Shown piece after piece: positions 6,472 through 37,404 of a stretch of DNA of 37,404 nucleotides. Position numbers and translations under genes: made by a program. The stretch's first letter is position 1; every line of letters starts with the position of its first letter. The DNA is from an uncultured Pirellulales bacterium (lineage in GTDB: Bacteria; Planctomycetota; Phycisphaerae; Sedimentisphaerales; Anaerobacaceae). Location: NCBI GenBank assembly GCA_964431825.1, contig CAYSLN010000002.1:1-37404 (forward strand). Direction: 5' to 3'. The notes under the pieces are model-generated. The model saw nothing but the letters and a program-made list of their open reading frames with translations, made no database searches and was not told the DNA's origin.

Positions 6472-6487
6472 TGGCACGAAATTTGCG
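6472..6487 (+). promoter_or_regulatory. sigma54 (-24/-12) promoter, TGGCACGAAATTTGCG
   Basis: Exact TGGCAC-N5-TTGC with GG-N10-GC spacing. It sits in a 307-nt intergenic region about 90 nt upstream of the GTG start at 6574, which has a GGGAG Shine-Dalgarno at 6561-6565. Confidence 0.7.
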
Positions 6488-6573
6488 TACAAAATAGTAG
6501 TTGGATTTTGAAAGGCTGTAATTTGACTATGAGTTTATAAGGAACATAATAGATTACATAGGGAGCACTACAA

Positions 6574-7098: not shown

Positions 7099-7177
7099 AA
7101 ACATAGTAACTGTAGACTTTTTCAAAGTTGGTTAACGAATTAGAGCTGAATAAATATTCGAAGAAAGCCAATCAGGT

Positions 7178-15073: not shown

Positions 15074-15762
15074 TTGTAAATACTCCGTTCTAACAATACA
15101 ATTTCAAGCATGCGGGTGGCTTTTGCTTGAGAATTATCCTCTATGTCATTATTGTGACTTTTTTGAAGTGTACCTGCTGCGATGCTGAATTGCCCCTTGT
15201 CGAGGCCCTGTTTTTTCGTTAAATACTCTATTATCGCCCATGCCCGCTGCAGCCCAAGATACTCGCTATCCTTTTCATCCCCTTGTCCATTTTCACTGAT
15301 AACCACCTTCCCAGGGACTTCTTTTAAAAATGATGCCATAACAGAAAGGGCCCTTCGACCCTGAAATGAAATAACCTTTCCATTGCCCCAGAAAATCGCC
15401 TCTGACGGGCTCAAAAATACCTTGTGCTCGTGGAAATTCTTAGACTCTGTTTCTTTTAGTAGTTTGTCTTCTTCTGCTTTTGTTAAAGTGGGCTTCTCGC
15501 TGCCCTTGTCAAGATTGTCATCGTATTGAATTAGATTTGTATCTGTAAGCGCACTCTTATCCCTCCTATCAAAACCAATTGAAGAAAACTCCTCGGTAAA
15601 TGTTTTTTGCAATCTACTAAGGGTCTTGTCATCGAAGGACGAAAAGCTCAGCAAAAGCACAAAGAATGTCAACAACAGTGTCATACAATCACTGAAAGTT
15701 ACCATCCATTCCGGCGCACCGGCTTCTTGCTCAGGTACCGTCTGTTTTCTCTTACGTCCCAT
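15070..15762 (-). CDS. motB: MotB-family stator protein, first paralog
   Basis: N-terminal PEWMVTFSDCMTLLLTFFVLLL is the MotB TM helix with the conserved Asp. The C-terminal LGLQRAWAIIEYL is a more degenerate OmpA-like motif. The ATG overlaps the motA TAA by 1 nt (TAATG). Confidence 0.77.
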   Translation of the reverse strand: MGRKRKQTVPEQEAGAPEWMVTFSDCMTLLLTFFVLLLSFSSFDDKTLSRLQKTFTEEFSSIGFDRRDKSALTDTNLIQYDDNLDKGSEKPTLTKAEEDKLLKETESKNFHEHKVFLSPSEAIFWGNGKVISFQGRRALSVMASFLKEVPGKVVISENGQGDEKDSEYLGLQRAWAIIEYLTKKQGLDKGQFSIAAGTLQKSHNNDIEDNSQAKATRMLEIVLLERSIYN

Positions 15763-16532
15763 TAGATATTGGCCTTTACCTCTTCACGTCTGCCATGAGA
15801 AATAAACGCCTGCATCTTTTCCCCAACAGCGGTCGGATTTTCACCTTGTGCAATAGCACAGATGCCTTCTGTAATCATTTCCATCGCGGTCACCTCAGCT
15901 TTGGAATAAATCCCCAATTTGCCTGCTAACGGAATAAAAATTAGATTAGCGGCAAAGGCGCCATAAAAGGTGGTTAGCAGTGCTACCGCCATACCAGATC
16001 CAATTGATTCCGGCGATTCCAAGTTGCTGAGCATTTTAACCAAACCAATAAGTGTGCCTATCATCCCAAAGGCAGGAGCAGCTGCACCCATAAACTCCAG
16101 TATTTTCTTGCCGGTTGAATGTCGGTCCTGAAGATACTGAATCTCAAGTGTCATAAGTTCGCGAATGTTCTCCGATTCTTGTCCATCTACAAGCATCTGC
16201 AAACCCTTGACAAAAAACAAATCGTTTACGTTGCGAATCTCCTGCTCCAAAGCCAATGCCCCGTCCCGTCGGTTAATAGCAGCATAATTAACCATTTTTT
16301 GAATCAATTCCGATGGCGATGGAATCTTGGAAACTATTGTCTTTCTGATTATTGAAAATATTCCAAAAAACTGTGGCAGTGAAAAATGTATCATTGTTGC
16401 GCATATCATCCCTCCTATGGTTATTGCCATCGAAGGAGCGTCAAAAAACATTCCGCCGCCACCGCCAGCTACAATAGCCCCAATTACTACCACTAGACCA
16501 AATAAAACTCCTACTACAGTCGCAATATCCAC
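15762..16532 (-). CDS. motA: Flagellar stator protein MotA
   Basis: 256 aa with four TM segments. Conserved blocks are AAPAFGMIGTLIGLVKML and MAVALLTTFYGAFAANLIFIPLAGKL. Confidence 0.92.
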   Translation of the reverse strand: MDIATVVGVLFGLVVVIGAIVAGGGGGMFFDAPSMAITIGGMICATMIHFSLPQFFGIFSIIRKTIVSKIPSPSELIQKMVNYAAINRRDGALALEQEIRNVNDLFFVKGLQMLVDGQESENIRELMTLEIQYLQDRHSTGKKILEFMGAAAPAFGMIGTLIGLVKMLSNLESPESIGSGMAVALLTTFYGAFAANLIFIPLAGKLGIYSKAEVTAMEMITEGICAIAQGENPTAVGEKMQAFISHGRREEVKANI

Positions 16533-23601: not shown

Positions 23602-23618
23602 AGCAATAATCATGCCAA
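23602..23618 (-). promoter_or_regulatory. sigma54 (-24/-12) promoter, minus-strand sequence TTGGCATGATTATTGCT
   Basis: TGGCAT-N5-TTGC with exact GG-N10-GC spacing. It lies about 50 nt upstream of the flgB ATG in the correct orientation. Confidence 0.66.
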
Positions 23619-23939: not shown

Positions 23940-23955
23940 TGGCATAACAATTGCT
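23940..23955 (+). promoter_or_regulatory. sigma54 (-24/-12) promoter, TGGCATAACAATTGCT
   Basis: TGGCAT-N5-TTGC with exact GG-N10-GC spacing. It is divergent from the flgB promoter and upstream of fliK. It overlaps the TTG that opens the ORF-track version of fliK. Confidence 0.66.
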
Positions 23956-26234: not shown

Positions 26235-27878
26235 ATGAAGCTATTCGGCACAGCTCAGCCTTTTATAGAATCCCGGGAAAACTCATTTAAAATTGGCAGG
26301 CTTGTAGCCAACTATGATTTTTTCAAAGCCCTTTTCAAATACTCTGACTTTGACGAGTTCCATATCTTCTGTCCAACTTTTGCTAATTGCCAACTAACCC
26401 AGAAAAGAATTTCAGAAGAAAACATCCCAAACGAACACAAAACAAGAATCAAGGTTTCCCATATTGCATCGCTGAAAAAATCGATAGCAGAAAACAATTA
26501 CCATATTTTCCATCTTGGTGGCTGGGGATTTTTCTTCCCTGGCCTTATCCATCTTCGCAACATTTATTCGCCCAGACCTTTCCCAATCACAGGTGTTACC
26601 CACTCCCTTAATGTAAAACAGGCCTCATTCTATGCGCTTAAAGTCTGCACAGCTCCTGTCCTGCCGTTTGATTCGATAGTATGCACCAGCAACTGCGGCA
26701 AAAAGGTCCTGAAAAAATTATTTGAAGTAACAGAAAACAATTTTAATCGAATGAAATTTAAATATCGGGGGCGAATGGATGTTATTCCATTAGGTATTGA
26801 TGATGCTTACAGAACCGTTCCAGACCGTAGCCAAAGCAGAAAGTCACTTGGAATAGACGATGATTCTTTTGTAATACTTTCGCTGGGACGTCTTGCATCG
26901 GATAATAAAATGGATTTTGCTCCATTCCTGACTGCCATAAAGCGATTTACAATAAAAAATAAAGACAAGAAAATAATCTTTATTCTTGCCGGTGGCGCTG
27001 ACAACCACGAGCAAAAACTTATAAAAACCCTCTTACAGGAAAATCAACTTGAAGATACTACTAAATTATTTATTAATTTTGAGGACAATAAAAAAAAACT
27101 TTTGTACAGCGCCGCAGACATATACACAGCTCCTATTGACAACTTCCAGGAAACTTTTGGGCTTTCCGTCGTAGAGGCAATGGCTTATGAATGCGCTGTT
27201 GTGGTTTCCGATTTTAATGGCTATTCCGAAATTGTAGATCACGATATAAACGGCATCAAGGTTCCGACTTTTTGGGCTGACGCAACAAGAGAATTCGAGG
27301 GTGTTTCAGAAATAATGAATTTTCCCACTTACCAGCTACTTCTTAGCCAGTCTGTTGCCGTTGACCTCGACAAGATGTCCGAGGTCTTCCAGGAATTGCT
27401 TGAAACCCCCGAAAAATGCAGGGAATTAGCAAAAGCGGCGAGAAAAAAGGTGGAACAAAATTACTTTTGGTCGGATGTTGTAAAGCAGTATTGTGCCTTA
27501 TGGGATGAGCTTGCCGAGCAGGCCAAAAGCAGTTCCGTCGACGTTGAGAAACCAAAGAATCCCTGGGAAATTGACTATTTCTCCATCTTTTCGCACTACC
27601 CTTCAAAGATTTTATCCGACAATAGCATGATATACTTATCTGAATATGGCCGGCAGGCCCTTGAGTCCGGCGATATCCCTGTTTCGTATTCGGATGTAGG
27701 CGCCAGCGCCGTTATACCACAGCTTATCACCATCGCACTGAAGCTCATAGACCAAAATCCAATCACAGCTTCACAATTTACCAATTCTCTGCAAAAACAT
27801 GTCGCGATATCAGATTCTACCGCACTGTATTATCTTTTATGGATGGCAAAGTATAATCTTGTGGGTATTTCCGATTGA
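26235..27878 (+). CDS. GT-B fold glycosyltransferase, group 1 (CAZy GT4-like), with a roughly 150-aa C-terminal extension
   Basis: EX7E motif ETFGLSVVEAMAYECAVVVSD, followed by GYSEIVDHDINGIKV, typical of Glycos_transf_1. There is a GGAAAG SD-like element before the ATG. Confidence 0.85.
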   Translation: MKLFGTAQPFIESRENSFKIGRLVANYDFFKALFKYSDFDEFHIFCPTFANCQLTQKRISEENIPNEHKTRIKVSHIASLKKSIAENNYHIFHLGGWGFFFPGLIHLRNIYSPRPFPITGVTHSLNVKQASFYALKVCTAPVLPFDSIVCTSNCGKKVLKKLFEVTENNFNRMKFKYRGRMDVIPLGIDDAYRTVPDRSQSRKSLGIDDDSFVILSLGRLASDNKMDFAPFLTAIKRFTIKNKDKKIIFILAGGADNHEQKLIKTLLQENQLEDTTKLFINFEDNKKKLLYSAADIYTAPIDNFQETFGLSVVEAMAYECAVVVSDFNGYSEIVDHDINGIKVPTFWADATREFEGVSEIMNFPTYQLLLSQSVAVDLDKMSEVFQELLETPEKCRELAKAARKKVEQNYFWSDVVKQYCALWDELAEQAKSSSVDVEKPKNPWEIDYFSIFSHYPSKILSDNSMIYLSEYGRQALESGDIPVSYSDVGASAVIPQLITIALKLIDQNPITASQFTNSLQKHVAISDSTALYYLLWMAKYNLVGISD

Positions 27879-27882
27879 GCTT

Positions 27883-28731
27883 ATGGTTTCTAATCAATCC
27901 AACGAAAAAACCGTTCAGAGTAGTAGTGATGCCGCAGGGCCGCTTGTATCAGTTATTGTACCAACCTATAACCGTCCCGATTCATTGGGGGAGGCCCTAG
28001 ATAGCATTGCAAAACAGACATTTAGAAATATCGAAGTCATTGTCGTCAACGATGGAGGTTGTGACGTTCAAAACGTAATCGAGGCAGCCTCGGAAAACAT
28101 TAATATCAAATACCTTTGTCATCACAATAACAAAGGACTCCCGGCAGCCCGCAATACCGGAATACGTAAAGCTCAGGGTAAATACATTACTTATCTGGAT
28201 GACGATGACATGTTGTATCCAGCTCACATACAAACACTGGCACATTTCCTCGAAACGACCGCATACCACGTAGCATATACAGATGCCTACCGCATCCTGC
28301 AGGAAAAACGAGATGGCACTTATATTACACTTGCAAAAGAAATCTACTATTCTCAGGATTTCAATCGAGATTACTTTCTTGTCGCAAGCTATATAGCAGT
28401 CCAGACTATCATGCACGAAAAAACATGCCTTGAAAAGGTAGGATATTTTGACGAGTCTCTGACTACTCACGAGGACCTTGATATGTGGATCCGACTGTCA
28501 CACAACTATGAATTTGCCCATATCCCCAAAGTCACTTCCGAGTTCAAGGAAAAAAACGATGGTATTTCTGTCACCAGTTCTAACAAGCTGAGGCGACTAA
28601 CAAATTTGAAACTAATCTACAAGCGATATAGCAAATGGGCATCTCCTGAAATACGTTATCTGCAGAAAAGAGTTCTACAGCGAATGTATGCCAACTATGG
28701 CCTTGATATGCCTCTGAGCCTAAAATCATAA
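27883..28731 (+). CDS. GT-A fold glycosyltransferase, family 2
   Basis: LVSVIVPTYNRPDSLGEALDSIAKQTF.NIEVIVVNDGG, the DXD region YITYLDDDDMLYP, and HEDLDMWIRL. The start is set at ATG 27883, 5 nt after the upstream stop, rather than 27799, which overlaps the upstream gene. Confidence 0.88.
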   Translation: MVSNQSNEKTVQSSSDAAGPLVSVIVPTYNRPDSLGEALDSIAKQTFRNIEVIVVNDGGCDVQNVIEAASENINIKYLCHHNNKGLPAARNTGIRKAQGKYITYLDDDDMLYPAHIQTLAHFLETTAYHVAYTDAYRILQEKRDGTYITLAKEIYYSQDFNRDYFLVASYIAVQTIMHEKTCLEKVGYFDESLTTHEDLDMWIRLSHNYEFAHIPKVTSEFKEKNDGISVTSSNKLRRLTNLKLIYKRYSKWASPEIRYLQKRVLQRMYANYGLDMPLSLKS

Positions 28732-29145: not shown

Positions 29146-30480
29146 ATGTTAGCGATTAAGAACAACATTATGGCGGATAATGCTGCCAGACACTTGGGCA
29201 AAGCATATGACAGCCTGGCCCAGAGTGTCGAAAGGCTCGCATCAGGCCTCCGAATAAATGGGGCGAAAGATGATGCAGCCGGTTTGGCTGTACGAGAGTT
29301 AATTCGTGCAGATGTCGCCGTCCTCCAGCAAGGTGGACGTAATGCCTCGGACGGCATTAGTATGTTGCAGACGATGGAAGGTGCGATGGCTGTTATAGAC
29401 GACGCTCTCATCCGAATGAAAGAGCTGGCTGAACAAGCCGCAACAGGCTCATATTCTGACGACCAGCGTATTATTATGAACGCTGAGTTCGCAGAAATGG
29501 CCGCAGAAATCGACCGTATCGCCGGTGCAACATCGTTTAACGGCATCAGGATGCTGACTACTGTTGACAGCACCGACGATGTCTCGATTCACGTTGGTAC
29601 AACCAGTACAATCGACATCTCGAGGCAGGACATGAGAACCAGCAGTTCCGGCCTTAATATCGCAACCGGCAGCGCCGGAGCAGAGGTTGTCTCGGTTGAT
29701 GCTAGTGGTATGACATTACCAACTACCGCCGGCTTCCTGACAATTGACAATACCGATGATGCAGCCGCCACCGTGACAATTGGGATTACATTTACCGATG
29801 ATGATTCTTCCACCGATGAGGAATCCATCTCCGTGGTGTTCTCAGACGCTGCCTCAGCCGGCGCTACCAGCTATACACTGCAGCAGGTTGTCGATGCTAT
29901 TAATACAGCCAGTCAGAACATCAACGTAAACGATACGAATGGTAACTCGCTGAACTACTCGATGGCTTCGGCTTATCTGGACACCTCTGAGAACACGTAT
30001 AAGCTAAAGCTCGAATCGCAGGCAAGCACCGCAGACAGTGTAGCAATTACGGCAACAGCCAGTGCCGATGGTGTTGAAGTGGATGGCTGGATTGTCGAAC
30101 CCGATGACTTTACCACCCCGATAAGCATCATAAGCACTGGTGATTACGCTGCTTTCGACGCAGTTTCAGCAGGTACGGGTATTAACATCCTGACTACTGC
30201 CGCTGCAGCGACCGCTTTGACGAGTGTCACTAGTGCAATTACCACCAAGGATACTGCCCGTGCGGCATTCGGTTACAAAATGAACCGTCTTGAGAGCACG
30301 ATAGCGATTCTCGACGTTCAGGCCGAGAATCTGATGGCTGCAGAAAGCCGAGTTTCTGATGTCGATGTCGCAACAGAGATGGCATCGATGACCAGAACGC
30401 AGGTACTTGCGCAAGCTGGTATCAGCATGCTGGCTCAGGCAAACGCCATGCCACAAATGGCCCTTTCACTGCTCAGATAA
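29146..30480 (+). CDS. fliC: Flagellin
   Basis: N-domain LAQSVERLASGLRINGAKDDAAGLAVRELIRADVAVLQQGGRNASDGISMLQTMEGAM. C-domain RVSDVDVATEMASMTRTQVLAQAGISMLAQANAMPQMALSLLR. Strong SD (AAAGGAG) 7-8 nt upstream of the ATG. Confidence 0.96.
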   Translation: MLAIKNNIMADNAARHLGKAYDSLAQSVERLASGLRINGAKDDAAGLAVRELIRADVAVLQQGGRNASDGISMLQTMEGAMAVIDDALIRMKELAEQAATGSYSDDQRIIMNAEFAEMAAEIDRIAGATSFNGIRMLTTVDSTDDVSIHVGTTSTIDISRQDMRTSSSGLNIATGSAGAEVVSVDASGMTLPTTAGFLTIDNTDDAAATVTIGITFTDDDSSTDEESISVVFSDAASAGATSYTLQQVVDAINTASQNINVNDTNGNSLNYSMASAYLDTSENTYKLKLESQASTADSVAITATASADGVEVDGWIVEPDDFTTPISIISTGDYAAFDAVSAGTGINILTTAAAATALTSVTSAITTKDTARAAFGYKMNRLESTIAILDVQAENLMAAESRVSDVDVATEMASMTRTQVLAQAGISMLAQANAMPQMALSLLR

Positions 30481-30592: not shown

Positions 30593-30952
30593 ATGAAAAG
30601 CATCGAAACATATCAGGAAAACGCGGTTACCACACAAAGCAAAGGCCGAATCGTTGTCATGCTCTACGAAGGAGCCATAAAATTCTTGAAGCTGGCTAAA
30701 AAAGAAATTGAAGCAAAAAACCACGAAGCAAAGAGCAAGTACATAAACAAAGCTCTGGATATAATCAACGAACTCAACACCGTTCTGGATATGGAGGCCG
30801 GTGGCGAAGTCGCGACGAATCTCCGTAGTTTGTATATGTTTATGATTCGCCATCTTCACCAGGCCAATATAAAACAAGACCCTGTGAAGATTGACGAAGT
30901 AATCAAGCTGTTGGAAGAACTGAACCAGAGTTGGAAAGCAATTTCCGGCTAA
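30593..30952 (+). CDS. fliS: Flagellin-specific export chaperone FliS
   Basis: 119 aa. YQENAVTTQSKGRIVVMLYEGAIKFL and NKALDIINELNTVLDME.GGEVATNLRSLYMFMIRHL are typical FliS four-helix-bundle motifs. GGAG SD upstream. Confidence 0.9.
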   Translation: MKSIETYQENAVTTQSKGRIVVMLYEGAIKFLKLAKKEIEAKNHEAKSKYINKALDIINELNTVLDMEAGGEVATNLRSLYMFMIRHLHQANIKQDPVKIDEVIKLLEELNQSWKAISG

Positions 30953-31060: not shown

Positions 31061-31076
31061 TGGCACAGTTATTGCT
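31061..31076 (+). promoter_or_regulatory. sigma54 (-24/-12) promoter, TGGCACAGTTATTGCT
   Basis: Exact TGGCAC-N5-TTGC with GG-N10-GC spacing, in a 313-nt intergenic region. It predicts a leader of about 180 nt before the first TPR-GT41 gene. Confidence 0.7.
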
Positions 31077-31200
31077 GCTTTTTTTACGGACAAAGTATTT
31101 GCTAAGAAGGCTCAAACCCTTCAGGACAATTAGTTATATGGATTCTGTTACGGCTGATATAAGGACTGAAACAGATACGCAAACCCCAAGTTGCTGGTGC

Positions 31201-31210
31201 GGGGGGGGGG
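31201..31210 (+). repeat. G10 homopolymeric tract in the leader of the TPR-GT41 operon
   Basis: Ten consecutive G residues flanked by C on both sides, read directly from the sequence. The tract lies between the sigma54 promoter (31061) and the ATG at 31266. Confidence 0.95.
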
Positions 31211-31265
31211 CTGATTCCATTGTTATTTTTAGTTTAGTTTGCGCGTCTAATTAAAAAAGACAGAA

Positions 31266-33131
31266 ATGGGGCAAAACAGAAAAATCCGTCGTGTGAGTCA
31301 TCGTAACAAAAAGAGCACAAACTCTTTGGGCTCTAAAGATAACAAAAACCGGCAAAGAACCTTGCTATTCGACGACTGGAAAGCAGAGATGCCCCAGTGG
31401 CTGAAAGATGCCTATGCCGCAGTTGAGGATGGTCAAATCCAAGAAGCTACTCGGCTTCTGGAAGAAAAAGCAGTTCAAAAGGCAATGGAGGGAATGTCCG
31501 GCTTGTCCAAAACTTTTACAAAGTATGGAATGGCGACGTTGCTGAGTCAAATCGGACAGGTAAAAAGAGCAGAGGATATCTATGAAGAGGTTTTGAAGAT
31601 AAATCCTCATCCCGCAGTCTACAACGATTTGGCTACTATATACAAGAATTCGGGGCGGCTTAATCAAGCCATACGGTATTTTAAAATAGCCATTGAAAAA
31701 GACCCGAATGAACCGCTACTGTGGGGCAATCTTGGCATCAGCCTGATGCGTTTGGGCCAAGTAGACAAAGCCATCGCATTGTTGCGACAAGCGGTGGAAA
31801 AATTGCCAAATAATAACTATGTGCGTTCAAACCTGCTGCTCCACATGCATTATTCACCTGAGGTCGATCATTCAATGATATTTGAAGAATCCAGGCGATG
31901 GGCACAGAGGAATGTGTCCGAGAGCCTAGCTAAGACATCTCACAGAAACACTCCCGACCCCGAGCGAAAGCTTCGAATCGGTTACGTCTCTCCGGACTTC
32001 CGCACGCATTCCGTAACATATTTTTTCGAACCGCTACTTGACGCACATAATCGAGATATTGTGGAAGTTTATGGGTACGGCAATATCAAACATTATGACG
32101 CTACAACCGAGAGGCTCAGGGATAAATTCGACCATTACAGGAATATTCGGCCGCTTGATGACAAAGCAACGGCCGAATTAATCGAAAACGATTGCATCGA
32201 TATCCTTGTGGACATGGCGGGACACTCAGCAGATAGCAGAATTTACGCAATGGCTTATAAACCGGCTCCGATACAGGTGACTTGGCTGGGCTATCCTGAT
32301 ACGACGGGAATGAGCCAAATAGATTATCGATTGACCGATGAGATTGCCGATCCTGTGGGTTCTGAGAAGTTTTATACCGAAGAATTATTTTATTTGCCGG
32401 ATGGCTTTCTCTGTTACGGACCCGGTGAGATGATGCCCCCAGTTGCTCAATCGCCTTGCCAAGCAAAAGGCAGCATTACTTTCGGCTCCTTCAACAATAG
32501 TACCAAGATAAATCCTGTTGTTATAGCGATGTGGTCGCGGATATTAAAATCCACGCCGGGTTCTTCGCTGTTATTGAAATTCAAATCCGGTAGCGATGAT
32601 GAGATTCGCCAAATGTTCCTTGAACGTTTTGAGAAACATGGAATCTCTCGCGACAGAGTAGCAACTTCCGGCTGGTTACAAAGTCGCCAGCATCTCGAAT
32701 TATATGGACAGGTCGATATAGCTCTGGATACTTTTCCTTATAACGGTACTACAACTACGTGCCAAGCACTTCTGATGGGAGTACCGGTTATTTCACTGGC
32801 GGGCGAGCACCATATGTCGAGGGTCGGACGCAGTATTCTAAGCCGCCTGGGGCTGGAATTCTTTGTCGCATCAACACCTAATGAGTATGTCGCAAAGGCA
32901 GTCGCTCTTGCGTCGAATCAGGATGCCCTTGGCAAAATCAGGTCTACCATGCGTGCGAGGATGGCTGTCAGTCCGCTTTGTAACAAGGCTAAATTCGCGG
33001 AAAACATCGAATGTGCTTATCGTCAGATGTGGCGTCGTTGGTGCGAATCACAGGACAACGATGATTTAGCTGAAGTCGAAAATTCGCAAGAAAAACAACG
33101 ACCGCTAAAAGTGTTTAAGCACTCAAATTGA
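31266..33131 (+). CDS. TPR + GT41-like (SPINDLY/OGT-type, FlmG-like) glycosyltransferase, paralog 1
   Basis: The N-terminal region of about 235 aa carries TPR units (e.g. AVYNDLATIYKNSGRLNQAIRYFKIAIEKDPNEP). The C-terminal blocks are LRIGYVSPDFRTHSVTYFFEPLL.AHNR...EVYGY, KPAPIQVTWLGYPDTTG..QIDYR.TDE, ITFGSFNN..KIN and DIALDTFPYNGTTTTCQALLMGVPVISL. These are typical of the COG3914/Glyco_transf_41 family. Confidence 0.85.
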   Translation: MGQNRKIRRVSHRNKKSTNSLGSKDNKNRQRTLLFDDWKAEMPQWLKDAYAAVEDGQIQEATRLLEEKAVQKAMEGMSGLSKTFTKYGMATLLSQIGQVKRAEDIYEEVLKINPHPAVYNDLATIYKNSGRLNQAIRYFKIAIEKDPNEPLLWGNLGISLMRLGQVDKAIALLRQAVEKLPNNNYVRSNLLLHMHYSPEVDHSMIFEESRRWAQRNVSESLAKTSHRNTPDPERKLRIGYVSPDFRTHSVTYFFEPLLDAHNRDIVEVYGYGNIKHYDATTERLRDKFDHYRNIRPLDDKATAELIENDCIDILVDMAGHSADSRIYAMAYKPAPIQVTWLGYPDTTGMSQIDYRLTDEIADPVGSEKFYTEELFYLPDGFLCYGPGEMMPPVAQSPCQAKGSITFGSFNNSTKINPVVIAMWSRILKSTPGSSLLLKFKSGSDDEIRQMFLERFEKHGISRDRVATSGWLQSRQHLELYGQVDIALDTFPYNGTTTTCQALLMGVPVISLAGEHHMSRVGRSILSRLGLEFFVASTPNEYVAKAVALASNQDALGKIRSTMRARMAVSPLCNKAKFAENIECAYRQMWRRWCESQDNDDLAEVENSQEKQRPLKVFKHSN

Positions 33132-33185
33132 TCGTTCCAATAAATCGCCTCGGTCAGTCTGAGTAATTTAAAGCCAAAGACTAAG

Positions 33186-34997
33186 ATGGAACAAACTGAA
33201 AAGAAAGGACATGATTCGCAGTCACAAGTTATGGCTTCAATAGATAACCTGCCAGCGTTTCTAATCGAGGCGGAAAATGCTGTAAACGCTGGAAATACGG
33301 AGAAAGCCAAAGCCTTTCTTTGTGAAAAGGCAGTCGAACAAGTTTGCAATATACAGGATGTTGCTTCAAAGGTGTTGGCGCTTTATATGCTTGCCTCACT
33401 GCTTCGTAAAGTCCGGCAGTTCGACAGAGCAGAGAAATTAAACAAAAAAATTCTTGAGTATGGTGAATATGCTTTTGCGTATAACGAGTTGAGCGGCATC
33501 TGCCAGGAAAGATGTGACTTCATAGCGGCTGTTGAATACGGAAGCAAGGCCTTGAGCCTCGAACCCGATAACCCAAAGCTCTTGTCCGTCCTCGGCAATG
33601 AACTTATCGCAATCAGCAAGATAGACGAAGGTGTCGAGTTATTGCGAAAAGCAGTCGAAATTGCGCCCGAGGATACGGAGATTGGGACGTGGCTGTTGTA
33701 CGGTCTTCATTATAAGCCCGACATAACACCGCAAATTCTTTTTGAAGAGCATAGGAAGTGGGGCAGCAGACATGCACCTATGACTATGGCCAAGATGAAT
33801 CACGATAATACTGTCGATCCTGAGAAAAAGCTTCGTATCGGGTACATTTCGCCGAATTTCCGACGGCACTCTGTCGTATATTTCTTTGAACCCCTTCTTG
33901 AAAGCCATAACCGTGAAGCAGTCGAAGTTTATGGCTACAATAATTCAAAAAAAGCAGATAAGTTTACCGAACGAATGAGACCTCAGTTTGATAACTTTAG
34001 AGATATTTACGAGCTGGCAGATGAAGAAGTCGCCGAGATGATCGTTCAGGACAAGATAGACATTCTTGTAGATCTGGCAGGTCATACCAGGGATAATAGT
34101 CTTCCTGTGTTGGCAAGGAGGCCCGCTCCTATACAGGTTACCTGGCTCGGTTATCCCAATACGACAGGTTTGGAGCAGATAGACTATCGGATAACTGACG
34201 AGTTGGCGGATCCACCCCGACTTCATAAATATTACACTGAAGAACAGGTATGTCTACCTGACGGTTTTTTATGTTATAGACCGCCGGATTTTGCACCGGC
34301 CTTGTCGGCATGTCCTTGCATCAAAAATGGTTATATCACATTTGGCTCGTTCAACATGAACGCGAAGATTAATCTTGAGGTTATATCTCTTTGGGCTCAG
34401 GTACTGAAGACAACTGAGAAGTCTCGTCTCTTGATTAAGCTTAGAGGTGGGGACCGCCGGCAGCTGCAAGACCACTATCGCAACCATTTTGAACGGCTCG
34501 GAATCAAGCCAGACAGGATAGAAATATGCGGGCGAAAATCAGCAGTGGAGCATCTGGCAATGTACGGAGAGGTAGATATTGGTCTGGACCCATATCCGTA
34601 TCATGGTACAACTACTACCTGTGAAGCCCTGTGGATGGGCGTGCCCATTATATCACTGCTTGGTGACCATCATTCCTGTCGCGTGTCTCTGAGTCTGCTC
34701 AAACGTCTTGATATGGATTATTTTGTCGCCTCAACTGAAGAAGAATATGTGGCAAAAGCATCTGCCCTCGCGGCAAATACGAAATCGTTATCGAAAATCC
34801 GCGCCACAATGCGCCAAAGACTGGCAGCCAGCGATATTTGCAACAAATCCAAATTTGCCGCGAATATTGAACAGGCCTATCGAAAAATGTGGCACCGATG
34901 GTGTCAGTCACAAGGAGTTGATGTTTCAAGTAAGCAGGTTGAGTCAAAAACCCAGCACTCGAATCAAAATATAACTCAGCATACACCTGTTATATAG
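33186..34997 (+). CDS. TPR + GT41-like glycosyltransferase, paralog 2
   Basis: It carries the same C-terminal blocks as paralog 1: LRIGYISPNFRRHSVVYFFEPLL, PAPIQVTWLGYPNTTG, ITFGSFNMNAKIN, GLDPYPYHGTTTTCEALWMGVPIISL and YRKMWHRWC. The N-terminal TPR region is divergent and about 215 aa long. Confidence 0.85.
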   Translation: MEQTEKKGHDSQSQVMASIDNLPAFLIEAENAVNAGNTEKAKAFLCEKAVEQVCNIQDVASKVLALYMLASLLRKVRQFDRAEKLNKKILEYGEYAFAYNELSGICQERCDFIAAVEYGSKALSLEPDNPKLLSVLGNELIAISKIDEGVELLRKAVEIAPEDTEIGTWLLYGLHYKPDITPQILFEEHRKWGSRHAPMTMAKMNHDNTVDPEKKLRIGYISPNFRRHSVVYFFEPLLESHNREAVEVYGYNNSKKADKFTERMRPQFDNFRDIYELADEEVAEMIVQDKIDILVDLAGHTRDNSLPVLARRPAPIQVTWLGYPNTTGLEQIDYRITDELADPPRLHKYYTEEQVCLPDGFLCYRPPDFAPALSACPCIKNGYITFGSFNMNAKINLEVISLWAQVLKTTEKSRLLIKLRGGDRRQLQDHYRNHFERLGIKPDRIEICGRKSAVEHLAMYGEVDIGLDPYPYHGTTTTCEALWMGVPIISLLGDHHSCRVSLSLLKRLDMDYFVASTEEEYVAKASALAANTKSLSKIRATMRQRLAASDICNKSKFAANIEQAYRKMWHRWCQSQGVDVSSKQVESKTQHSNQNITQHTPVI

Positions 34998-35028
34998 AAC
35001 AGAGATTGTTAATTGTTGTGGATTTGGA

Positions 35029-36744
35029 ATGGCACAGGAAAAGAAGAAAAGACCTTGTCGCAGCAAGGTAAAAAAATCTTCGCCCGTTCAACAAGATGGA
35101 ACTGAAGATGGGCTGGCTGCGTTTCTTCGCAAAATCAAATCAGCTTTTGAAGAGGGTCAGCTTGAACTTGCTATCGGCATTCTTTCACAAGCCGCAAAAT
35201 ATGTGTCGGAAACCTCGAATTTATCTTCCAGTGAGGCTGTTTTATGGGAAAAATTCGGTGTTCATCTGATATCGACAGGTGAAATAGAACAGTTGGTTGA
35301 TTTGTTGCCCAAGATGGTGAAGATACATCCATGGGATTCGAATGTTCATTCCCATATGTTGTTTACTCTGCATCACCTGCCTGAAGTTGACCAACAAATG
35401 ATTTTTGATGAACATAAACGGTGGGCTGAAATTCACGCGCCTGCGAATAAGATTGAACTCTTTCATGACAATGTTGCTGATCCTGACCGCCGGCTTCGAA
35501 TTGGTTATATCTCTCCTGATTTTCGTATGCATCCGGTGGCATTTTTTGTTGAGTCTCTTCTTAACGGCCACAATCGAAAAAATGTCGAGGTCTATGGGTA
35601 TGGTAATGTCGCCAAGCCGGAAACTGCAACTGAATACCTAAAAGGTAAGTTTGACTATTATCGTAATATCTATGGTCTCGATATCCAATCACTAATCCAT
35701 CTTATCAGGGAAGACAAAATCGACATATTGGTAGAGCTTGCAGGCCACACAAACGATAATAGTCTCACTGCCCTGGCGTATAAACCGGCACCTATCCAGG
35801 TTTCTTATTTAGGGTATCCGGGAACAACTGGAATGCAGCAAATCGATTATCGCCTGGTGGATGAATGTGTTAATCCAGCGCAATCACAGAAATACTATAC
35901 CGAAGAACTAATCCATTTGCCGGAACCTTTTATCTGCTATAATTTTACTGATCTGAAATCACCGGTCACAGCGCCTCCTGTCGAGCAAAAAGGCTACATT
36001 ACCTTCGGGGCGTTTAAGAACAATTGCAAAATTAACTCACATGTAATGTCGCTTTGGGCCAAAATCTTGAAAGCCAATGATAACTCGCGCCTATTATTAC
36101 GATTCGCGAAAGGCTCTGACCAAAATATTAGAAACCATTACCTACGCCAGTTTGAGTTCTTGGGTATCAATCCGAACAGAATTGAAATAGGCGGGTGGCT
36201 GACTTATATTGAGCACCTGCGTCAGTATGAAAATGTTGACATTGGCCTGGACACATTCCCCTTCAATGGCCATACGACTACCTGTGATGCTTTATGGATG
36301 GGCGTGCCGACAATATCACTGTTTGGCGAGTCCTTTGCTTCTCGACTTGGCTTGAGTTTGCTCAAATCGGTAGGGCTGGAGTTTTTTGCGGCTGAAACAG
36401 CCGAAGAATATGTCGCTAAAGCGACTGCGCTGGCACAAAATCATCAGTCGCTCGTTAAGATTCGAGCCTCTATGAGAGAAAGAATGCTTTCCAGTCGTTT
36501 ATGCAATTCAAAAAATTTCGCATCCGGTCTGGAAAACGCATATCGAAAAATGTGGCACCGGTGGTGCAAAAGTCGTGGAGTTGAAATGAGCGATAAAAAA
36601 ACAGGACCAACTCAAAGCCGGCAGCGGCAAGAGAAATCCTCGGAATCAGTTGAACCTGCTACTGTTGCTCGGGAACCTGAATCTAAACGTGGAATTATAT
36701 ACATGATATGGGGTGACAGTGAAAAGCATGAAAAAACACTCTAG
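35029..36744 (+). CDS. TPR-reduced + GT41-like glycosyltransferase, paralog 3 (with an unusually long C-terminal tail)
   Basis: The C-terminal blocks are the same: LRIGYISPDFRMHPVAFFVESLL, PAPIQVSYLGYPGTTG, ITFGAFKNNCKIN, GLDTFPFNGHTTTCDALWMGVPTISL and YRKMWHRWC. The N-terminal region is only about 155 aa. The tail after WHRWC is about 58 aa, against 30-35 aa in the paralogs. Confidence 0.8.
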   Translation: MAQEKKKRPCRSKVKKSSPVQQDGTEDGLAAFLRKIKSAFEEGQLELAIGILSQAAKYVSETSNLSSSEAVLWEKFGVHLISTGEIEQLVDLLPKMVKIHPWDSNVHSHMLFTLHHLPEVDQQMIFDEHKRWAEIHAPANKIELFHDNVADPDRRLRIGYISPDFRMHPVAFFVESLLNGHNRKNVEVYGYGNVAKPETATEYLKGKFDYYRNIYGLDIQSLIHLIREDKIDILVELAGHTNDNSLTALAYKPAPIQVSYLGYPGTTGMQQIDYRLVDECVNPAQSQKYYTEELIHLPEPFICYNFTDLKSPVTAPPVEQKGYITFGAFKNNCKINSHVMSLWAKILKANDNSRLLLRFAKGSDQNIRNHYLRQFEFLGINPNRIEIGGWLTYIEHLRQYENVDIGLDTFPFNGHTTTCDALWMGVPTISLFGESFASRLGLSLLKSVGLEFFAAETAEEYVAKATALAQNHQSLVKIRASMRERMLSSRLCNSKNFASGLENAYRKMWHRWCKSRGVEMSDKKTGPTQSRQRQEKSSESVEPATVAREPESKRGIIYMIWGDSEKHEKTL

Positions 36745-37404
36745 CGTTCAATCACCTCAGTTCGAGAACATCATCCTGATCTTCCTAATACACATCGAAA
36801 GGTTTGAGGCAGGCGGAAAAATAAACAAAACCAGAATATGCGAATTGAGCCCATTTGAACAGACAGCATTTCTGGATAATGACACGGTAGTTATGGGAAA
36901 TCTGGACTACGGCTTTGAAAAGGCCGGGCAGTTTGGCCTGTCATGCGTCATTAATGAGTGTCCATGGGCCAGACGATACAGTGACCCAAGACTTTCCGGT
37001 GATATGATAGAATACAACAGCGGCGTTCTTTTTTTCACCAGAAAGGCAAAGCTCGTTTTTGACGCCTGGGAAAAATTATTCCCAACGACTGATGCTTCGA
37101 TTGTTCATCTTAAAGGTAATAAGAATTGTTTAATGCCGGTAGCTGACCAAGAAAGTTTAGCGTTGGCTCTCGAGCAAACTGGATTTCAACCTTTTATTTT
37201 GCCGTATAACTGGAACTTTCGGCCCAGTTGGCACAGATCGTTATTCGGGCCGATCAAGATATGGCATTCTTATTATGATATTCCCGAAGAACTTCTCGAT
37301 TGGAATAAAGAACAGTCAGCTAAAAATGCCGTGATTCGGTTCTGTCTGCTCGATATGAACGCAAAGAATATTTCACAGAAAGATTTGGTCGGGTCGAGCA
37401 GGTA
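36728..37404 (+). CDS. GT-A fold (GT8-like, DXD) glycosyltransferase ORF, 3'-truncated by the window edge; 5' end possibly disrupted
   Basis: Frame 2 is open from 36707 to the window end and the first ATG is at 36728. It contains SPFEQTAFLDNDTVVMGNLDYGFE (DXD motif) and IEYNSGVLFF, typical of GT8-like nucleotide-diphospho-sugar transferases. The ORF track omits it because it has no stop inside the window. Confidence 0.6.
   Translation, partial: MKKHSSVQSPQFENIILIFLIHIERFEAGGKINKTRICELSPFEQTAFLDNDTVVMGNLDYGFEKAGQFGLSCVINECPWARRYSDPRLSGDMIEYNSGVLFFTRKAKLVFDAWEKLFPTTDASIVHLKGNKNCLMPVADQESLALALEQTGFQPFILPYNWNFRPSWHRSLFGPIKIWHSYYDIPEELLDWNKEQSAKNAVIRFCLLDMNAKNISQKDLVGSSR

What the first reader, a model, noticed from the sequence alone, without database searches (positions are those of the whole stretch)
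31061..36744. Three tandem TPR + GT41-like glycosyltransferase paralogs next to fliC-fliS, under their own sigma54 promoter
Seen in sequence:
- Three consecutive genes (621, 603 and 571 aa) share a highly conserved C-terminal catalytic region of about 400 aa. Shared blocks include LRIGY.SP.FR.H.V.FF, PAPIQV..LGYP.TTG..QIDYR, ITFG.F....KIN, LD..P..G.TTTC.AL.MGVP.ISL and YR.MW.RWC.
- Their N-terminal TPR regions are divergent in sequence and length: about 235, 215 and 155 aa.
- They lie directly downstream of flagellin and its chaperone, behind a consensus -24/-12 promoter.

Established knowledge: TPR plus OGT/SPINDLY-type GT-B architecture defines the GT41 family. As I recall it, the same architecture is found in Caulobacter FlmG, the enzyme that attaches a nonulosonic acid to flagellin, with the TPR part used for substrate binding.

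Inference: a conserved catalytic domain combined with diversified TPR domains suggests three enzymes with different acceptor specificities. The acceptors could be different flagellin sites, or different axial proteins such as FliD, FlgK/L or FliK. Only one flagellin gene is visible in the window, so a 3:1 enzyme-to-substrate ratio is unusual.
Basis: partly seen in the sequence, partly recalled or inferred. Interest (0 to 1): 0.75.

Follow-up and report, generated by a model that had tools for sequence, protein, structure and literature searches.

The report
SPINDLY-type glycosyltransferase trio beside flagellin
Three related sugar-attaching enzymes of the plant-SPINDLY type sit right after the flagellin gene under their own sigma-54 promoter, in an arrangement shared by related uncultured Planctomycetes; they most likely decorate the flagellar filament with sugars, a plausible but untested variant of a known kind of system.

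Summary
Three co-directional genes (621, 603 and 571 aa) follow fliC-fliS. All three hit Pfam GT41 strongly. An exact sigma-54 -24/-12 element lies 190 nt upstream of the first gene, and it recurs at the same place in five related loci.

New findings:
- The enzymes are much closer to plant SPINDLY, a GDP-fucose protein O-fucosyltransferase (E about 1e-127), than to O-GlcNAc transferases or HMW1C.
- The trio is an old a-b-c array. Each type has orthologs in the same order in related Phycisphaerae-like contigs, and arrays of 2-4 GT41 genes next to fliC-fliS are the norm there.
- The catalytic pockets are not equivalent. G1 and G2 keep SPINDLY's donor-contact Lys and Tyr. G3 and its orthologs have a different, conserved set (Arg/Gln/Phe/His).
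- G3 is the remnant of an ~800-aa GT41+GT8-like fusion. A nonsense codon and a 1-nt insertion split it, and both are also present in an independent metagenome contig that is 99.4% identical.

Best reading: a flagellin glycosylation island in which the paralogs differ in donor as well as acceptor. No glycan data exist. The FlmG comparison holds only at the level of TPR plus GT-B fold. This is a new variant of a known kind, of moderate interest.

The parts
31061..31076 (+). Sigma-54 (-24/-12) promoter of the GT41 operon: TGGCACAGTTATTGCT
   Evidence: It is the only zero-mismatch consensus match in the window. An exact TGGCAC-N5-TTGC also lies 36-157 nt upstream of the first GT41 gene in L014, L015, L016/L017, L019 and L020. 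No terminator-like site lies between fliS and G1 on the + strand.
31201..31210 (+). Poly-G tract (G10) in the 5' leader, 56 nt upstream of the G1 start codon
   Evidence: It is the only G or C homopolymer of 8 or more bases in the window. An independent assembly (L021) has G9 at this site, and that is the only indel in 6.1 kb. Relatives lack the tract.
31266..33131 (+). G1, the 'a-type' SPINDLY-like GT41: 621 aa, a basic N-terminal tail, TPR region up to about residue 190, catalytic domain from about residue 235
   Evidence: PF13844 E=3.5e-58, and TPR_1/TPR_2 E about 1e-18. Arabidopsis SPINDLY 7y4i matches at E=2.6e-127 over residues 100-596. The donor signature is K/L/Y, and K665, H495, S496 and T748 equivalents are present. 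Orthologs sit directly after fliS in all five related genomes.
33186..34997 (+). G2, the 'b-type' SPINDLY-like GT41: 603 aa with weaker TPRs
   Evidence: PF13844 E=1.1e-48, and TPR_2 E=9e-8. The signature is K/M/Y. The ortholog L014_b590 is 81% identical in the catalytic region and 68% in the N-terminal region.
35029..36744 (+). G3, the 'c-type' GT41: 571 aa with a vestigial TPR. It ends at a premature TAG relative to its ~800-aa orthologs
   Evidence: PF13844 E=2.9e-57 with no TPR hit. SPINDLY matches at E=8.8e-103. The distinct signature K661/R689/Q731/F744/H747 is shared with L014_c793 and L018_c804. The orthologs align through the stop codon.
36742..36744 (+). In-frame TAG, where L014 has TTG and L018 has GGC
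   Evidence: DNA alignment A1. The same TAG is present in L022, an independent JGI contig that is 99.4% identical.
36787..36788 (+). One extra A (CCTaATACAC) that shifts the reading frame
   Evidence: The extra base is absent from L014 and L018. It is present in L022 and L023.
36685..37404 (+). Disrupted GT8-like (GT-A fold, retaining-type) glycosyltransferase domain. Its first ~35 residues lie in the G3 reading frame. The rest is a 225-aa ORF starting at ATG 36728, whose stop codon lies just past the window end
   Evidence: tblastn gives 82% identity to residues 589-793 of L014_c793 in the next frame. The family consists of stand-alone ~225-aa proteins without a Pfam model. The AlphaFold2 model has pLDDT 94.6. 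Foldseek matches GT8 enzymes (LARGE1, XXYLT1, glycogenin, GlyE, LgtC, Skp1 alpha-GalT) and GT6 enzymes at E about 1e-7 and TM 0.5-0.62.
29146..30480 (+). Flagellin FliC (444 aa), the presumed acceptor
   Evidence: Flagellin_N E=9e-33 and Flagellin_C E=3.5e-23. The central domain (residues 141-358) is 28% Ser+Thr, against 9% in the N-terminal helices.
30593..30952 (+). FliS, the flagellin export chaperone
   Evidence: PF02561 E=1.6e-42 and TIGR00208 E=1.7e-35.
26235..27878 (+). GT4 glycosyltransferase (547 aa) between fliK and fliC, probably part of the same glycosylation island
   Evidence: Glycos_transf_1 E=8e-24. It is 62-69% identical and syntenic in L016 and L019.
27883..28731 (+). GT2 glycosyltransferase. 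The ORF as listed starts at 27799, but homology begins near residue 50, so Met29 at 27883 is the likely start
   Evidence: Glycos_transf_2 E=3e-31. It is 66-76% identical in L016 and L019, starting from query residue 50.

Best explanation
The three genes form a sigma-54-transcribed operon inside a flagellin glycosylation island. The island is conserved in a lineage of uncultured Planctomycetota, probably Phycisphaerae.

Each gene encodes a cytoplasmic GT-B protein O-glycosyltransferase of the SPINDLY branch of GT41, with a short N-terminal TPR-type module. They most likely transfer sugars from nucleotide-sugar donors onto Ser/Thr residues of the surface-exposed central domain of flagellin. This would happen before FliS-assisted export.

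The paralogs are old and non-redundant:
- G1 (a-type) is the universal core enzyme. It probably starts the glycosylation.
- G1 and G2 keep SPINDLY's guanine-contact Lys and fucose-side Tyr. They therefore probably use a GDP-linked small hexose or 6-deoxyhexose.
- G3 (c-type) has a different conserved donor pocket and almost no TPR. In relatives it is fused to a GT8-like retaining transferase that would add a second sugar. In this organism that second domain has been broken.
- The neighbouring GT4 and GT2 enzymes probably extend the glycan.

Shown here: family membership, conservation of catalytic residues, synteny, promoter conservation, the paralog-specific signatures and the gene split.

Inferred: flagellin as the acceptor, the identity of the donors and the order of action.
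For: - Family: GT41 Pfam hits are far above cut-off for all three proteins.
- Closest structure: SPINDLY is the best solved relative, with one contiguous alignment from the last TPRs to the C-terminus. E-values are 2.6e-127 for G1 and 8.8e-103 for G3. It is well ahead of TtOGT, hOGT, XcOGT and NGT/HMW1C.
- Catalytic residues: the equivalents of the essential SPY K665 and H495 are present in all three. S496 and T748 equivalents are mostly present. Residue roles are taken from PMC9715652.
- Donor signature: the SPY K689/A731/Y744 versus hOGT L866/R904/C917 scheme comes from PMC10027727. G1 is K/L/Y, G2 is K/M/Y and G3 is R/Q/F. Of the 120 closest homologs, 73 are KLY and none shows the OGT pattern.
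- Synteny: fliK, then GT4 (and in some loci GT2 or TPR genes), then fliC-fliS, then 1-3 GT41 genes in L014, L016/17, L018 and L019. L020 has four tandem GT41 genes beside fliS-fliC.
- Orthology: a-, b- and c-type orthologs share order, N-terminal length (235/215/155) and active-site signature.
- Promoter: the exact -24/-12 element is conserved upstream of the first GT41 gene in 5 of 6 loci.
- Operon structure: gaps of 54 and 31 nt separate the genes, with no terminator before or between them.
- Acceptor: the flagellin central domain is 25-29% Ser/Thr in all six loci.
- Accessory genes: glycan-tailoring genes flank the arrays in relatives. These include FkbM and other methyltransferases, a sulfotransferase, a B12-radical SAM methylase and an SDR epimerase/dehydratase.
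- c-type fusion partner: it has a GT8/GT6-like fold.
- Precedents: TPR+GT-B FlmG binds flagellin through its TPR domain (PMC7591256). GT41 genes occur in enterobacterial flagellin glycosylation islands (PMC4875605). A cyanobacterial TPR+GT41 Ogt encoded next to pilA is required for pilin glycosylation (PMC9306852).
Against: - No experimental data exist for any member of this clade. Literature searches found no flagellin glycosylation work in Planctomycetes and no characterised GT41 flagellin transferase.
- No nucleotide-sugar biosynthesis genes are in the window, so the donor is inferred from 2-3 residues only.
- Position 731 is Leu or Met in G1 and G2, not the Ala said to make room for K689. 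PMC10027727 notes a prokaryotic 'intermediate group' with mixed signatures.
- SPY-like GT41 genes also occur in tandem without any flagellin gene within 10 kb in other phyla and orders (L001-L010). Tandem arrays are therefore not flagellum-specific in themselves.
- L018 lacks the sigma-54 element.
- Whether other flagellin genes exist elsewhere in the genome is unknown.
Confidence: 0.6

Rival explanations
1. First reader's version. All three enzymes use the same donor and differ only in acceptor. They target different Ser/Thr sites of flagellin, or different axial proteins (FliD, FlgK, FlgL, FliK), as directed by their divergent TPR modules.
For: - N-terminal modules are 30-32% identical between paralogs but 68-73% identical between orthologs, and each type keeps its own length.
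- FlmG's TPR domain is the flagellin-binding determinant (PMC7591256).
- FliD, FlgK, FlgL and FliK are all about 20% Ser/Thr.
- G1 and G2 do share a near-identical donor signature.
Against: - G3 and its orthologs differ from G1 and G2 at every donor-signature position, and at K661 and H747. The difference is conserved across three genomes.
- G3 has almost no TPR left to direct acceptor choice.
- c-type enzymes are normally fused to a second glycosyltransferase. That points to differences in glycan chemistry rather than in the target protein.
Confidence: 0.15
2. Only the a-type enzyme (G1) glycosylates protein. G2 and G3 have been recruited to extend the glycan, using a sugar already on flagellin as acceptor. 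They would work with the GT4, the GT2 and, in relatives, the GT8-like domain.
For: - The a-type is the only GT41 present directly after fliS in every related locus.
- TPR content falls from G1 to G2 to G3.
- By my own recollection, not checked here, the GT41 enzyme HMW1C forms both protein-hexose and hexose-hexose links.
- The island holds 5-6 glycosyltransferases for one flagellin gene.
Against: - G2 and G3 retain the full peptide-facing architecture. Both align with SPINDLY from the last TPR onward.
- No GT41 of the SPY or OGT branch is known to me that acts only on sugar acceptors.
- L016 and L019 have a second, very different GT41 upstream of fliC with a long 300-aa TPR region, which looks protein-directed.
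Confidence: 0.15
3. The enzymes are general cytoplasmic O-glycosylation regulators, as SPINDLY and OGT are in eukaryotes, or regulators of flagellar gene expression, as GmaR is in Listeria. In this reading they are not filament-decorating enzymes, and their position next to fliC reflects co-regulation only.
For: - SPINDLY and OGT modify hundreds of intracellular proteins (PMC10027727, PMC9715652).
- SPY-like GT41 tandems occur without flagellar genes in other bacteria.
- GmaR, a bifunctional O-GlcNAc transferase and anti-repressor, is cited in PMC7591256.
Against: - Tight synteny with fliC-fliS holds across six loci whose flagellins are only 53-70% identical.
- The arrays are flanked by sugar-tailoring genes and other glycosyltransferases.
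- The operon shares the sigma-54 promoter type seen upstream of flgB and fliK in the window.
Confidence: 0.07

Closest known systems
Arabidopsis SPINDLY (SPY), a GT41 protein O-fucosyltransferase (PDB 7y4i, 8dtf)
   Same: It is the best solved relative. A single contiguous alignment runs from the last TPRs to the end of the catalytic domain, and catalytic-region identity to G1 is 46%. There is no intervening domain. K665 and H495 are conserved in all three paralogs, the guanine-contact K689 and Y744 are conserved in G1 and G2, and S496, T747 and T748 are mostly conserved.
   Different: SPY has 11 TPRs, against about 2-4 here and about 1 in G3. Position 731 is Leu, Met or Gln instead of Ala. 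G3 has R689/F744/H747. SPY is a eukaryotic nucleocytoplasmic regulator with hundreds of substrates. The proteins here are encoded in a bacterial flagellar operon. Fucosyltransferase activity is untested.
Caulobacter/Brevundimonas FlmG flagellin glycosyltransferase
   Same: Both have an N-terminal TPR module plus a C-terminal GT-B glycosyltransferase of about 600 aa. Both are cytoplasmic and associated with flagellar genes. In FlmG the TPR binds flagellin and the GT-B sets donor preference (PMC7591256; 10.1101/2022.03.25.485807).
   Different: FlmG transfers pseudaminic or legionaminic acid from CMP-activated donors. It is reported as confined to Caulobacterales (10.1101/2023.12.03.569772). No nonulosonic-acid synthesis genes occur in the window or in the flanks of six related loci. 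FlmG is a single enzyme serving six flagellins, whereas here three enzymes sit next to one visible flagellin gene.
GT41 (COG3914, SPINDLY-family) glycosyltransferases of enterobacterial flagellin glycosylation islands (De Maayer & Cowan 2016, PMC4875605)
   Same: These are GT41 genes encoded in islands next to flagellin genes, with 1-3 glycosyltransferases per island. Most are fused to methyltransferase domains. Homologs of G1 with FkbM or SAM-methyltransferase fusions are likewise common (P0021, P0022, P0027, P0070, P0098, P0112, P0114).
   Different: The enterobacterial cases are genomic predictions only. That study reports each island as holding glycosyltransferases of a single family. Here GT41 sits together with GT4, GT2 and a GT8-like domain. 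The a-b-c array, the sigma-54 promoter and the GT41-GT8 fusion are not described there.
Synechococcus elongatus Ogt (TPR + GT41) acting on pilin PilA (PMC9306852)
   Same: It is a bacterial TPR+GT41 enzyme encoded next to the gene for a filament subunit, and it is required for glycosylation of that subunit.
   Different: It is treated as an O-GlcNAc transferase and shows UDP-GlcNAc hydrolysis. It is a single gene, and the filament is a type IV pilus rather than a flagellum.
Maf-type flagellin glycosyltransferases (Campylobacter, Aeromonas, Shewanella, Clostridium)
   Same: They are functional analogues. They glycosylate flagellin Ser/Thr in the cytoplasm before export, are encoded in flagellar loci and often occur as several paralogs with different specificities (10.1101/2023.12.03.569772).
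   Different: Maf enzymes have a GT-A-type MAF_flag10 fold and use nonulosonic-acid donors. They are unrelated in sequence to GT41.
Thermobaculum terrenum TtOGT (PDB 5djs), a short-TPR bacterial GT41
   Same: It is the second-best solved relative (E=1.9e-89 for G1). It is of similar size (529 aa) and also has only a few TPRs.
   Different: It has Ile/Thr/Tyr at the three signature positions, read from the printed alignment, so it lacks the guanine-contact Lys. It has no flagellar context.

Membership tests
CAZy GT41 / Pfam PF13844 (OGT/SEC/SPY-type GT-B) | Significant match to the GT41 profile above the curated cut-off | tested here: met
   197.6, 166.3 and 194.6 bits against a cut-off of 25.
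CAZy GT41 / Pfam PF13844 (OGT/SEC/SPY-type GT-B) | Conserved catalytic-site Lys (hOGT K842 / SPY K665) and His (hOGT H558 / SPY H495) | tested here: met
   K and H are present in G1, G2 and G3 and in all a-, b- and c-type orthologs. Their roles are described in PMC9715652.
CAZy GT41 / Pfam PF13844 (OGT/SEC/SPY-type GT-B) | N-terminal TPR array joined to the catalytic domain | tested here: inconclusive
   Met for G1 (TPR_1 E=2.6e-18). Weakly met for G2 (TPR_2 E=9e-8). No TPR model hits G3, which only aligns to the last SPY TPR.
SPY-like clan of GT41 (protein O-fucosyltransferases) | Closer to SPY than to OGT/SEC, with no intervening domain | tested here: met
   For G1, SPY scores E=2.6e-127 in one stretch, while hOGT scores 8.7e-75 in split stretches. 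For G3 the values are 8.8e-103 and 5e-48.
SPY-like clan of GT41 (protein O-fucosyltransferases) | Donor signature K689 / A731 / Y744 (PMC10027727) | tested here: inconclusive
   G1 is K/L/Y and G2 is K/M/Y, so two of three positions match and none is OGT-like. G3 is R/Q/F, so no position is identical. Of 120 homologs, 73 are KLY and 3 are KAY.
SPY-like clan of GT41 (protein O-fucosyltransferases) | Transfers fucose from GDP-fucose to protein Ser/Thr | not testable with these tools
   This needs enzyme assays or glycopeptide mass spectrometry.
FlmG class of flagellin glycosyltransferases | N-terminal TPR plus C-terminal GT-B, about 600 aa | tested here: met
   The architecture is met for G1 and G2. 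The FlmG description comes from PMC7591256.
FlmG class of flagellin glycosylation enzymes | Sequence orthology to CCNA_01524 | not testable with these tools
   The FlmG sequence is not in any accessible collection. Leclerc 1998 (PMC107534) is not held. The class is reported as confined to Caulobacterales (10.1101/2023.12.03.569772).
FlmG class of flagellin glycosyltransferases | Uses CMP-pseudaminic or CMP-legionaminic acid, with a pse/leg pathway present | tested here: not met
   No NeuB/PseI/LegI-type or other nonulosonic-acid genes are among the ORFs of 100 aa or more scanned against Pfam in the window, or in the +/-10 kb flanks of L014, L016, L018, L019 and L020. The rest of the genome was not seen.
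FlmG class of flagellin glycosyltransferases | TPR domain binds flagellin | not testable with these tools
   This needs two-hybrid or pull-down assays, or complex modelling.
Flagellin glycosylation island | Glycosyltransferase genes adjacent to the flagellin gene, with conserved synteny | tested here: met
   Six related loci keep GT41 genes beside fliC-fliS.
Flagellin glycosylation island | Flagellin actually carries a glycan | not testable with these tools
   This needs mass spectrometry of filaments.
Sigma-54-dependent promoter | GG at -24 and GC at -12 in the consensus TGGCAC-N5-TTGCW, positioned upstream of the gene | tested here: met
   There is an exact match at 31061-31076, the only one in the window. 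It is conserved in 5 of 6 related loci. The activator and the transcription start site were not tested.

The most novel reading that the evidence does not exclude
The trio may be a bacterial flagellin O-fucosylation (or other GDP-sugar) system run by true SPINDLY-type enzymes. G1 and G2 would attach a GDP-linked 6-deoxyhexose to flagellin Ser/Thr. The c-type enzyme would use a different donor and, in relatives, extend the glycan through its fused GT8-like domain. This would be the first assigned physiological substrate for the large bacterial SPY-like clade. It would also be a first experimentally tractable GT41 flagellin glycosyltransferase, giving a prokaryotic context for the ancestry of plant SPINDLY. 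The poly-G tract in the operon leader could add phase-variable control.
Probability: 0.25. Interest if true: 0.7.

Novelty: new variant of a known kind. Interest (0 to 1): 0.45.

Why it matters
Flagellin glycosylation is widespread. The characterised transferases found in the searches made here are Maf (GT-A), FlmG (GT-B, Caulobacterales only) and GT2 enzymes. Those searches found GT41 enzymes in flagellar loci only as genome annotations.

This locus and its relatives give a conserved, well-delimited set of SPINDLY-type enzymes with an obvious candidate substrate. That makes two open questions testable. What do the thousands of bacterial SPY-like GT41 proteins do? How are donor and acceptor specificity divided between the GT-B pocket and the TPR module?

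The paralog-specific pocket residues (K/L/Y versus R/Q/F/H) are ready-made hypotheses for donor-switch mutagenesis. If the flagellin turns out to be unmodified, the finding reduces to an ordinary annotation.

Tried and rejected
- The genome-contig scan with G1 found only relatives of 44% identity or less, and none had flagellin nearby. The source species is not in that set.
- I tried to verify that FlmG is GT41. The FlmG papers say only 'GT-B'. Leclerc 1998 is not held. No FlmG sequence was obtainable, so this stays untested.
- I recalled that Pseudomonas FgtA (PA1091) is a TPR/SPINDLY-type enzyme. That was wrong: it is GT2 (PMC11833859).
- NCBIfam has no equivalog for G1-G3. The best hit is the NGT/HMW1C model at 39-75 bits against a cut-off of 1000.
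- Pfam and NCBIfam gave nothing for the C-terminal domain of c-type enzymes. Structure prediction was needed to identify it.
- The G3 split as a sequencing artefact was rejected. The same TAG and the same extra A occur in an independent JGI contig that differs at 7 of 1199 positions.
- I looked for a sigma-54 or clear sigma-28 promoter upstream of fliC. There is no sigma-54 site within 2 mismatches and only weak sigma-28-like matches.
- The SDR epimerase/dehydratase in L020 could not be assigned to a GDP-fucose pathway. Its best models are dTDP-glucose dehydratase and GalE, both below cut-off.
- Bootstrap values for the NJ tree were computed but not printed. Clade assignments therefore rest on the identity matrix, the signatures and synteny.
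- The protein-representatives search, the second structure job, the third homolog search and the metagenome-contig scan were not used, because they would not have changed the verdict.

Full report
**1. What is there**

The window is one large flagellar gene cluster.
- The left part, on the + strand, holds FlgH, FlgI, a FlgJ-like protein, FlgN, FlgK, FlgL, two TPR proteins and FliD.
- The middle part, on the - strand, holds FlhB, FliR, FliP, FliO, two MotB, MotA, FliJ-like, FliI, FliH, FliG, FliF, FliE, FlgC and FlgB.
- The right part, on the + strand, holds FliK, a GT4 and a GT2 glycosyltransferase, FliC, FliS and then the three genes of the finding.

The three ORFs are 31266-33131 (G1, 621 aa), 33186-34997 (G2, 603 aa) and 35029-36744 (G3, 571 aa). 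They are separated by 54 and 31 nt.

All three match Pfam Glyco_transf_41, with E-values of 3.5e-58, 1.1e-48 and 2.9e-57. TPR models hit G1 strongly and G2 weakly, and do not hit G3 at all.

The paralogs are 55-57% identical over the catalytic region and 29-32% identical over the N-terminal regions of 234, 214 and 154 aa.

TGGCACAGTTATTGCT at 31061-31076 is the only perfect sigma-54 consensus match in the window.

**2. The enzymes are SPINDLY-type**

Against all PDB sequences, the best match by far is Arabidopsis SPINDLY. For G1 the E-value is 2.6e-127, in one contiguous alignment of residues 100-596 to SPY residues 346-848.
- The next matches are the short-TPR bacterial TtOGT (1.9e-89), human OGT (8.7e-75, in split stretches), XcOGT (4.6e-42) and NGT/HMW1C (about 1e-17).
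- G3 gives the same order.
- The catalytic region of G1 is 46% identical to that of SPY.

SPY is a GDP-fucose protein O-fucosyltransferase. Its structures define two sets of residues:
- K665 and H495 are essential (PMC9715652).
- The donor signature is K689/A731/Y744, against L866/R904/C917 in human OGT (PMC10027727).

I mapped these positions onto the window proteins.
- All three paralogs keep the Lys and the His.
- G1 is K/L/Y and G2 is K/M/Y.
- G3 is R/Q/F. G3 also has Lys at position 661, and a GHTT motif like human OGT's instead of the GTTT of SPY.
- Among the 120 closest homologs of G1, 73 are K/L/Y and none has the OGT pattern.

**3. The arrangement is conserved and the paralogs are old**

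G1 has thousands of homologs. Where they carry a name, it is mostly 'SPINDLY family' from Planctomycetota, Phycisphaerae or Sedimentisphaerales. The best hit is 79% identical.

I examined the contigs that carry close homologs.
- L014: fliK, a TPR gene, GT4, a TPR gene, fliC, fliS, then three GT41 genes (611, 590 and 793 aa) and a B12-radical SAM gene.
- L018: fliK, GT4, fliC, fliS, a methyltransferase, then three GT41 genes (576, 612 and 804 aa) and a sulfotransferase.
- L016/L017 and L019: fliK, GT4, GT2, a TPR gene, one GT41, fliC, fliS and one GT41.
- L020: four tandem GT41 genes, an SDR epimerase/dehydratase and an FkbM methyltransferase beside fliS-fliC.

The flagellins in these loci are only 53-70% identical to the window's, so the synteny has been maintained over a considerable evolutionary distance.

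Identity matrices, a neighbour-joining tree and the active-site signatures sort the proteins by position.
- The a-type (G1) is the gene right after fliS, and it is present in all five genomes.
- The c-type (G3) is found in the window, L014 and L018.
- The b-type (G2) is found in the window and L014.

N-terminal modules are 68-73% identical between window and L014 orthologs, but about 31% identical between paralogs. Each type keeps its own N-terminal length.

Multi-copy GT41 arrays are therefore normal for this clade. The 3:1 ratio of enzymes to flagellin is not an oddity.

More distant SPY-like GT41 genes were found in Xanthobacteraceae, Tepidisphaerales, Planctomycetaceae and Burkholderiales. 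They also occur in tandem, but with no flagellin gene within 10 kb.

**4. The promoter**

An exact TGGCAC-N5-TTGC lies 36-190 nt upstream of the first GT41 gene in the window, L014, L015, L016/17, L019 and L020. L018 lacks it.

The window also has one-mismatch sigma-54 sites upstream of flgB and fliK. fliC itself has no sigma-54 site within two mismatches.

No terminator-like structure separates fliS from G1, or the paralogs from one another. The 'own sigma-54 promoter' claim is supported by this conservation across loci. The transcription start site and the activator are untested.

**5. G3 is a broken fusion**

The c-type orthologs are about 800 aa long. tblastn shows that they align to the G3 reading frame straight through the TAG at 36742-36744. 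They then continue, at 82% identity, in the next frame from 36788 to the window end.

The DNA alignment shows two lesions in the window. There is a TAG where L014 has TTG, and an extra A at 36787/8 that both orthologs lack.

Both lesions are present in an independent JGI metagenome contig (L022) that differs from the window at 7 of 1199 positions. The split is therefore real and inherited.

The extra domain belongs to a family of stand-alone ~225-aa 'hypothetical proteins' with no Pfam model. Its AlphaFold2 model has pLDDT 94.6. The model matches GT8 enzymes (LARGE1, XXYLT1, glycogenin, GlyE, LgtC, Skp1 alpha-galactosyltransferase) and GT6 enzymes.

The window's 225-aa ORF lacks the family's nearly invariant N-terminal motif RGVLYxxWG...RS...HPELP. 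That domain is probably inactive here, while the GT41 part of G3 is intact.

**6. Most likely mechanism**

This is a flagellin glycosylation island. Soluble SPY-type GT41 enzymes would be made from a sigma-54 promoter shared in type with the hook and basal-body genes. They would glycosylate Ser/Thr in the 28% Ser/Thr central domain of flagellin in the cytoplasm, before FliS-assisted export.
- G1, the universal a-type with the best TPRs, is the likely initiating enzyme.
- G1 and G2 probably use a GDP-linked small or 6-deoxy hexose.
- The c-type has a different pocket. In relatives it has a built-in second transferase, which implies a different sugar and a disaccharide.
- GT4, GT2 and the variable tailoring genes seen in relatives (methyltransferases, a sulfotransferase, a radical SAM enzyme) would elaborate the glycan.

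Family membership, residue conservation, synteny, the promoter and the gene split are shown here. The acceptor, the donors and the order of action are inferred.

**7. Comparison with what is known**
- FlmG has the same TPR plus GT-B layout, and its TPR binds flagellin (PMC7591256). It uses CMP-nonulosonic acids and is reported only in Caulobacterales (10.1101/2023.12.03.569772). No such pathway genes are near these loci. Whether FlmG's domain is GT41 could not be tested here.
- GT41 (COG3914) genes have been catalogued in enterobacterial flagellin glycosylation islands, with 1-3 glycosyltransferases per island and frequent methyltransferase fusions (PMC4875605). The general kind is therefore known.
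- A cyanobacterial TPR+GT41 Ogt encoded next to pilA is required for pilin glycosylation (PMC9306852).
- Literature searches found no characterised GT41 flagellin transferase and nothing on flagellin glycosylation in Planctomycetes.

**8. Verdict**

The locus is a new variant of a known kind.

The new elements are the SPINDLY-branch identity with a mostly SPY-like donor signature, the conserved a-b-c array with distinct donor pockets, the GT41-GT8 fusion lineage that is split here, and the conserved sigma-54 promoter.

Interest is moderate (0.45). The locus offers a clear, testable entry point into the function of bacterial SPY-like enzymes. Without glycan data it remains a well-supported annotation.

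Noticed in passing
window 36685-37404 (with L014:13745-16126, L018:13599-16013, L022): G3 is the remnant of an ~800-aa GT41+GT8-like fusion. A TTG-to-TAG change at 36742-36744 and a 1-nt insertion at 36787/8 split it. Both lesions recur in an independent contig that is 99.4% identical. The remaining 205 codons have no further stop, so the split looks recent.
   Followed up: yes
window 31201-31210: A G10 tract lies in the leader of the GT41 operon and is the only long G/C homopolymer in the window. The Logan assembly of run SRR9710542 (L021) has G9 here, and relatives have no tract. It could be a phase-variation switch, as in the Campylobacter glycosylation loci with homopolymeric tracts (from my own recollection, not checked here), or just homopolymer sequencing noise.
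   Followed up: partly
P0122-P0240; L001:11414-11938: There is a widespread family of ~225-aa 'hypothetical proteins' with no Pfam model. Invariant motifs include LDxDT, ECPWARR, EYNTGV, NDQ and NWNFRP. The predicted fold is a GT8/GT6-like retaining glycosyltransferase. A member also lies near tandem GT41 genes in a Xanthobacteraceae contig without flagellar genes, which suggests a recurring GT41 + GT8-like partnership.
   Followed up: partly
window 26235-28731: GT4 (547 aa) and GT2 genes lie between fliK and fliC. They are syntenic and 62-76% identical in L016 and L019. The listed GT2 ORF overlaps the GT4 gene by 80 nt, but homology starts near residue 50, so its real start is probably Met29 (27883).
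   Followed up: partly
L016:5683-7683, L019:5574-7559: A fourth, very different GT41 type lies upstream of fliC in two relatives. It has a 300-aa TPR region and the signature R665/G689/E744, so it lacks the usual Lys. The window has no counterpart.
   Followed up: no
window 6472-7816: Two small TPR proteins (174 and 212 aa) lie between flgL and fliD. They resemble SycD/LcrH-type secretion chaperones weakly (below the curated cut-off). A one-mismatch sigma-54 site at 6472 precedes them. They may be flagellar export chaperones.
   Followed up: no
window 23602-23617 (-) and 23940-23955 (+): Divergent one-mismatch sigma-54 sites lie upstream of flgB and fliK. The hook and basal-body genes and the GT41 operon therefore appear to share sigma-54 control. 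No sigma-54 site lies upstream of fliC.
   Followed up: no
window 14339-16532 (-): Two adjacent MotB paralogs (244 and 230 aa) follow a single MotA.
   Followed up: no
L022:1243-2709; L014:16188-17855: A B12-binding radical SAM methylase-like gene directly follows the c-type GT41, both in the window's own lineage (just past the window end) and in L014. Other relatives have FkbM or SAM methyltransferases, or a sulfotransferase, at this place. This suggests methylated or sulfated glycans.
   Followed up: partly
G1 residues 1-40, G3 residues 1-25, L018_c804 residues 1-25: All the GT41 paralogs begin with a strongly basic, Ser-containing, probably disordered tail, for example MGQNRKIRRVSHRNKKSTNS in G1. 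In SPINDLY an N-terminal peptide occupies the active site and is self-fucosylated (PMC9715652). Whether these tails play a similar role is unknown.
   Followed up: no
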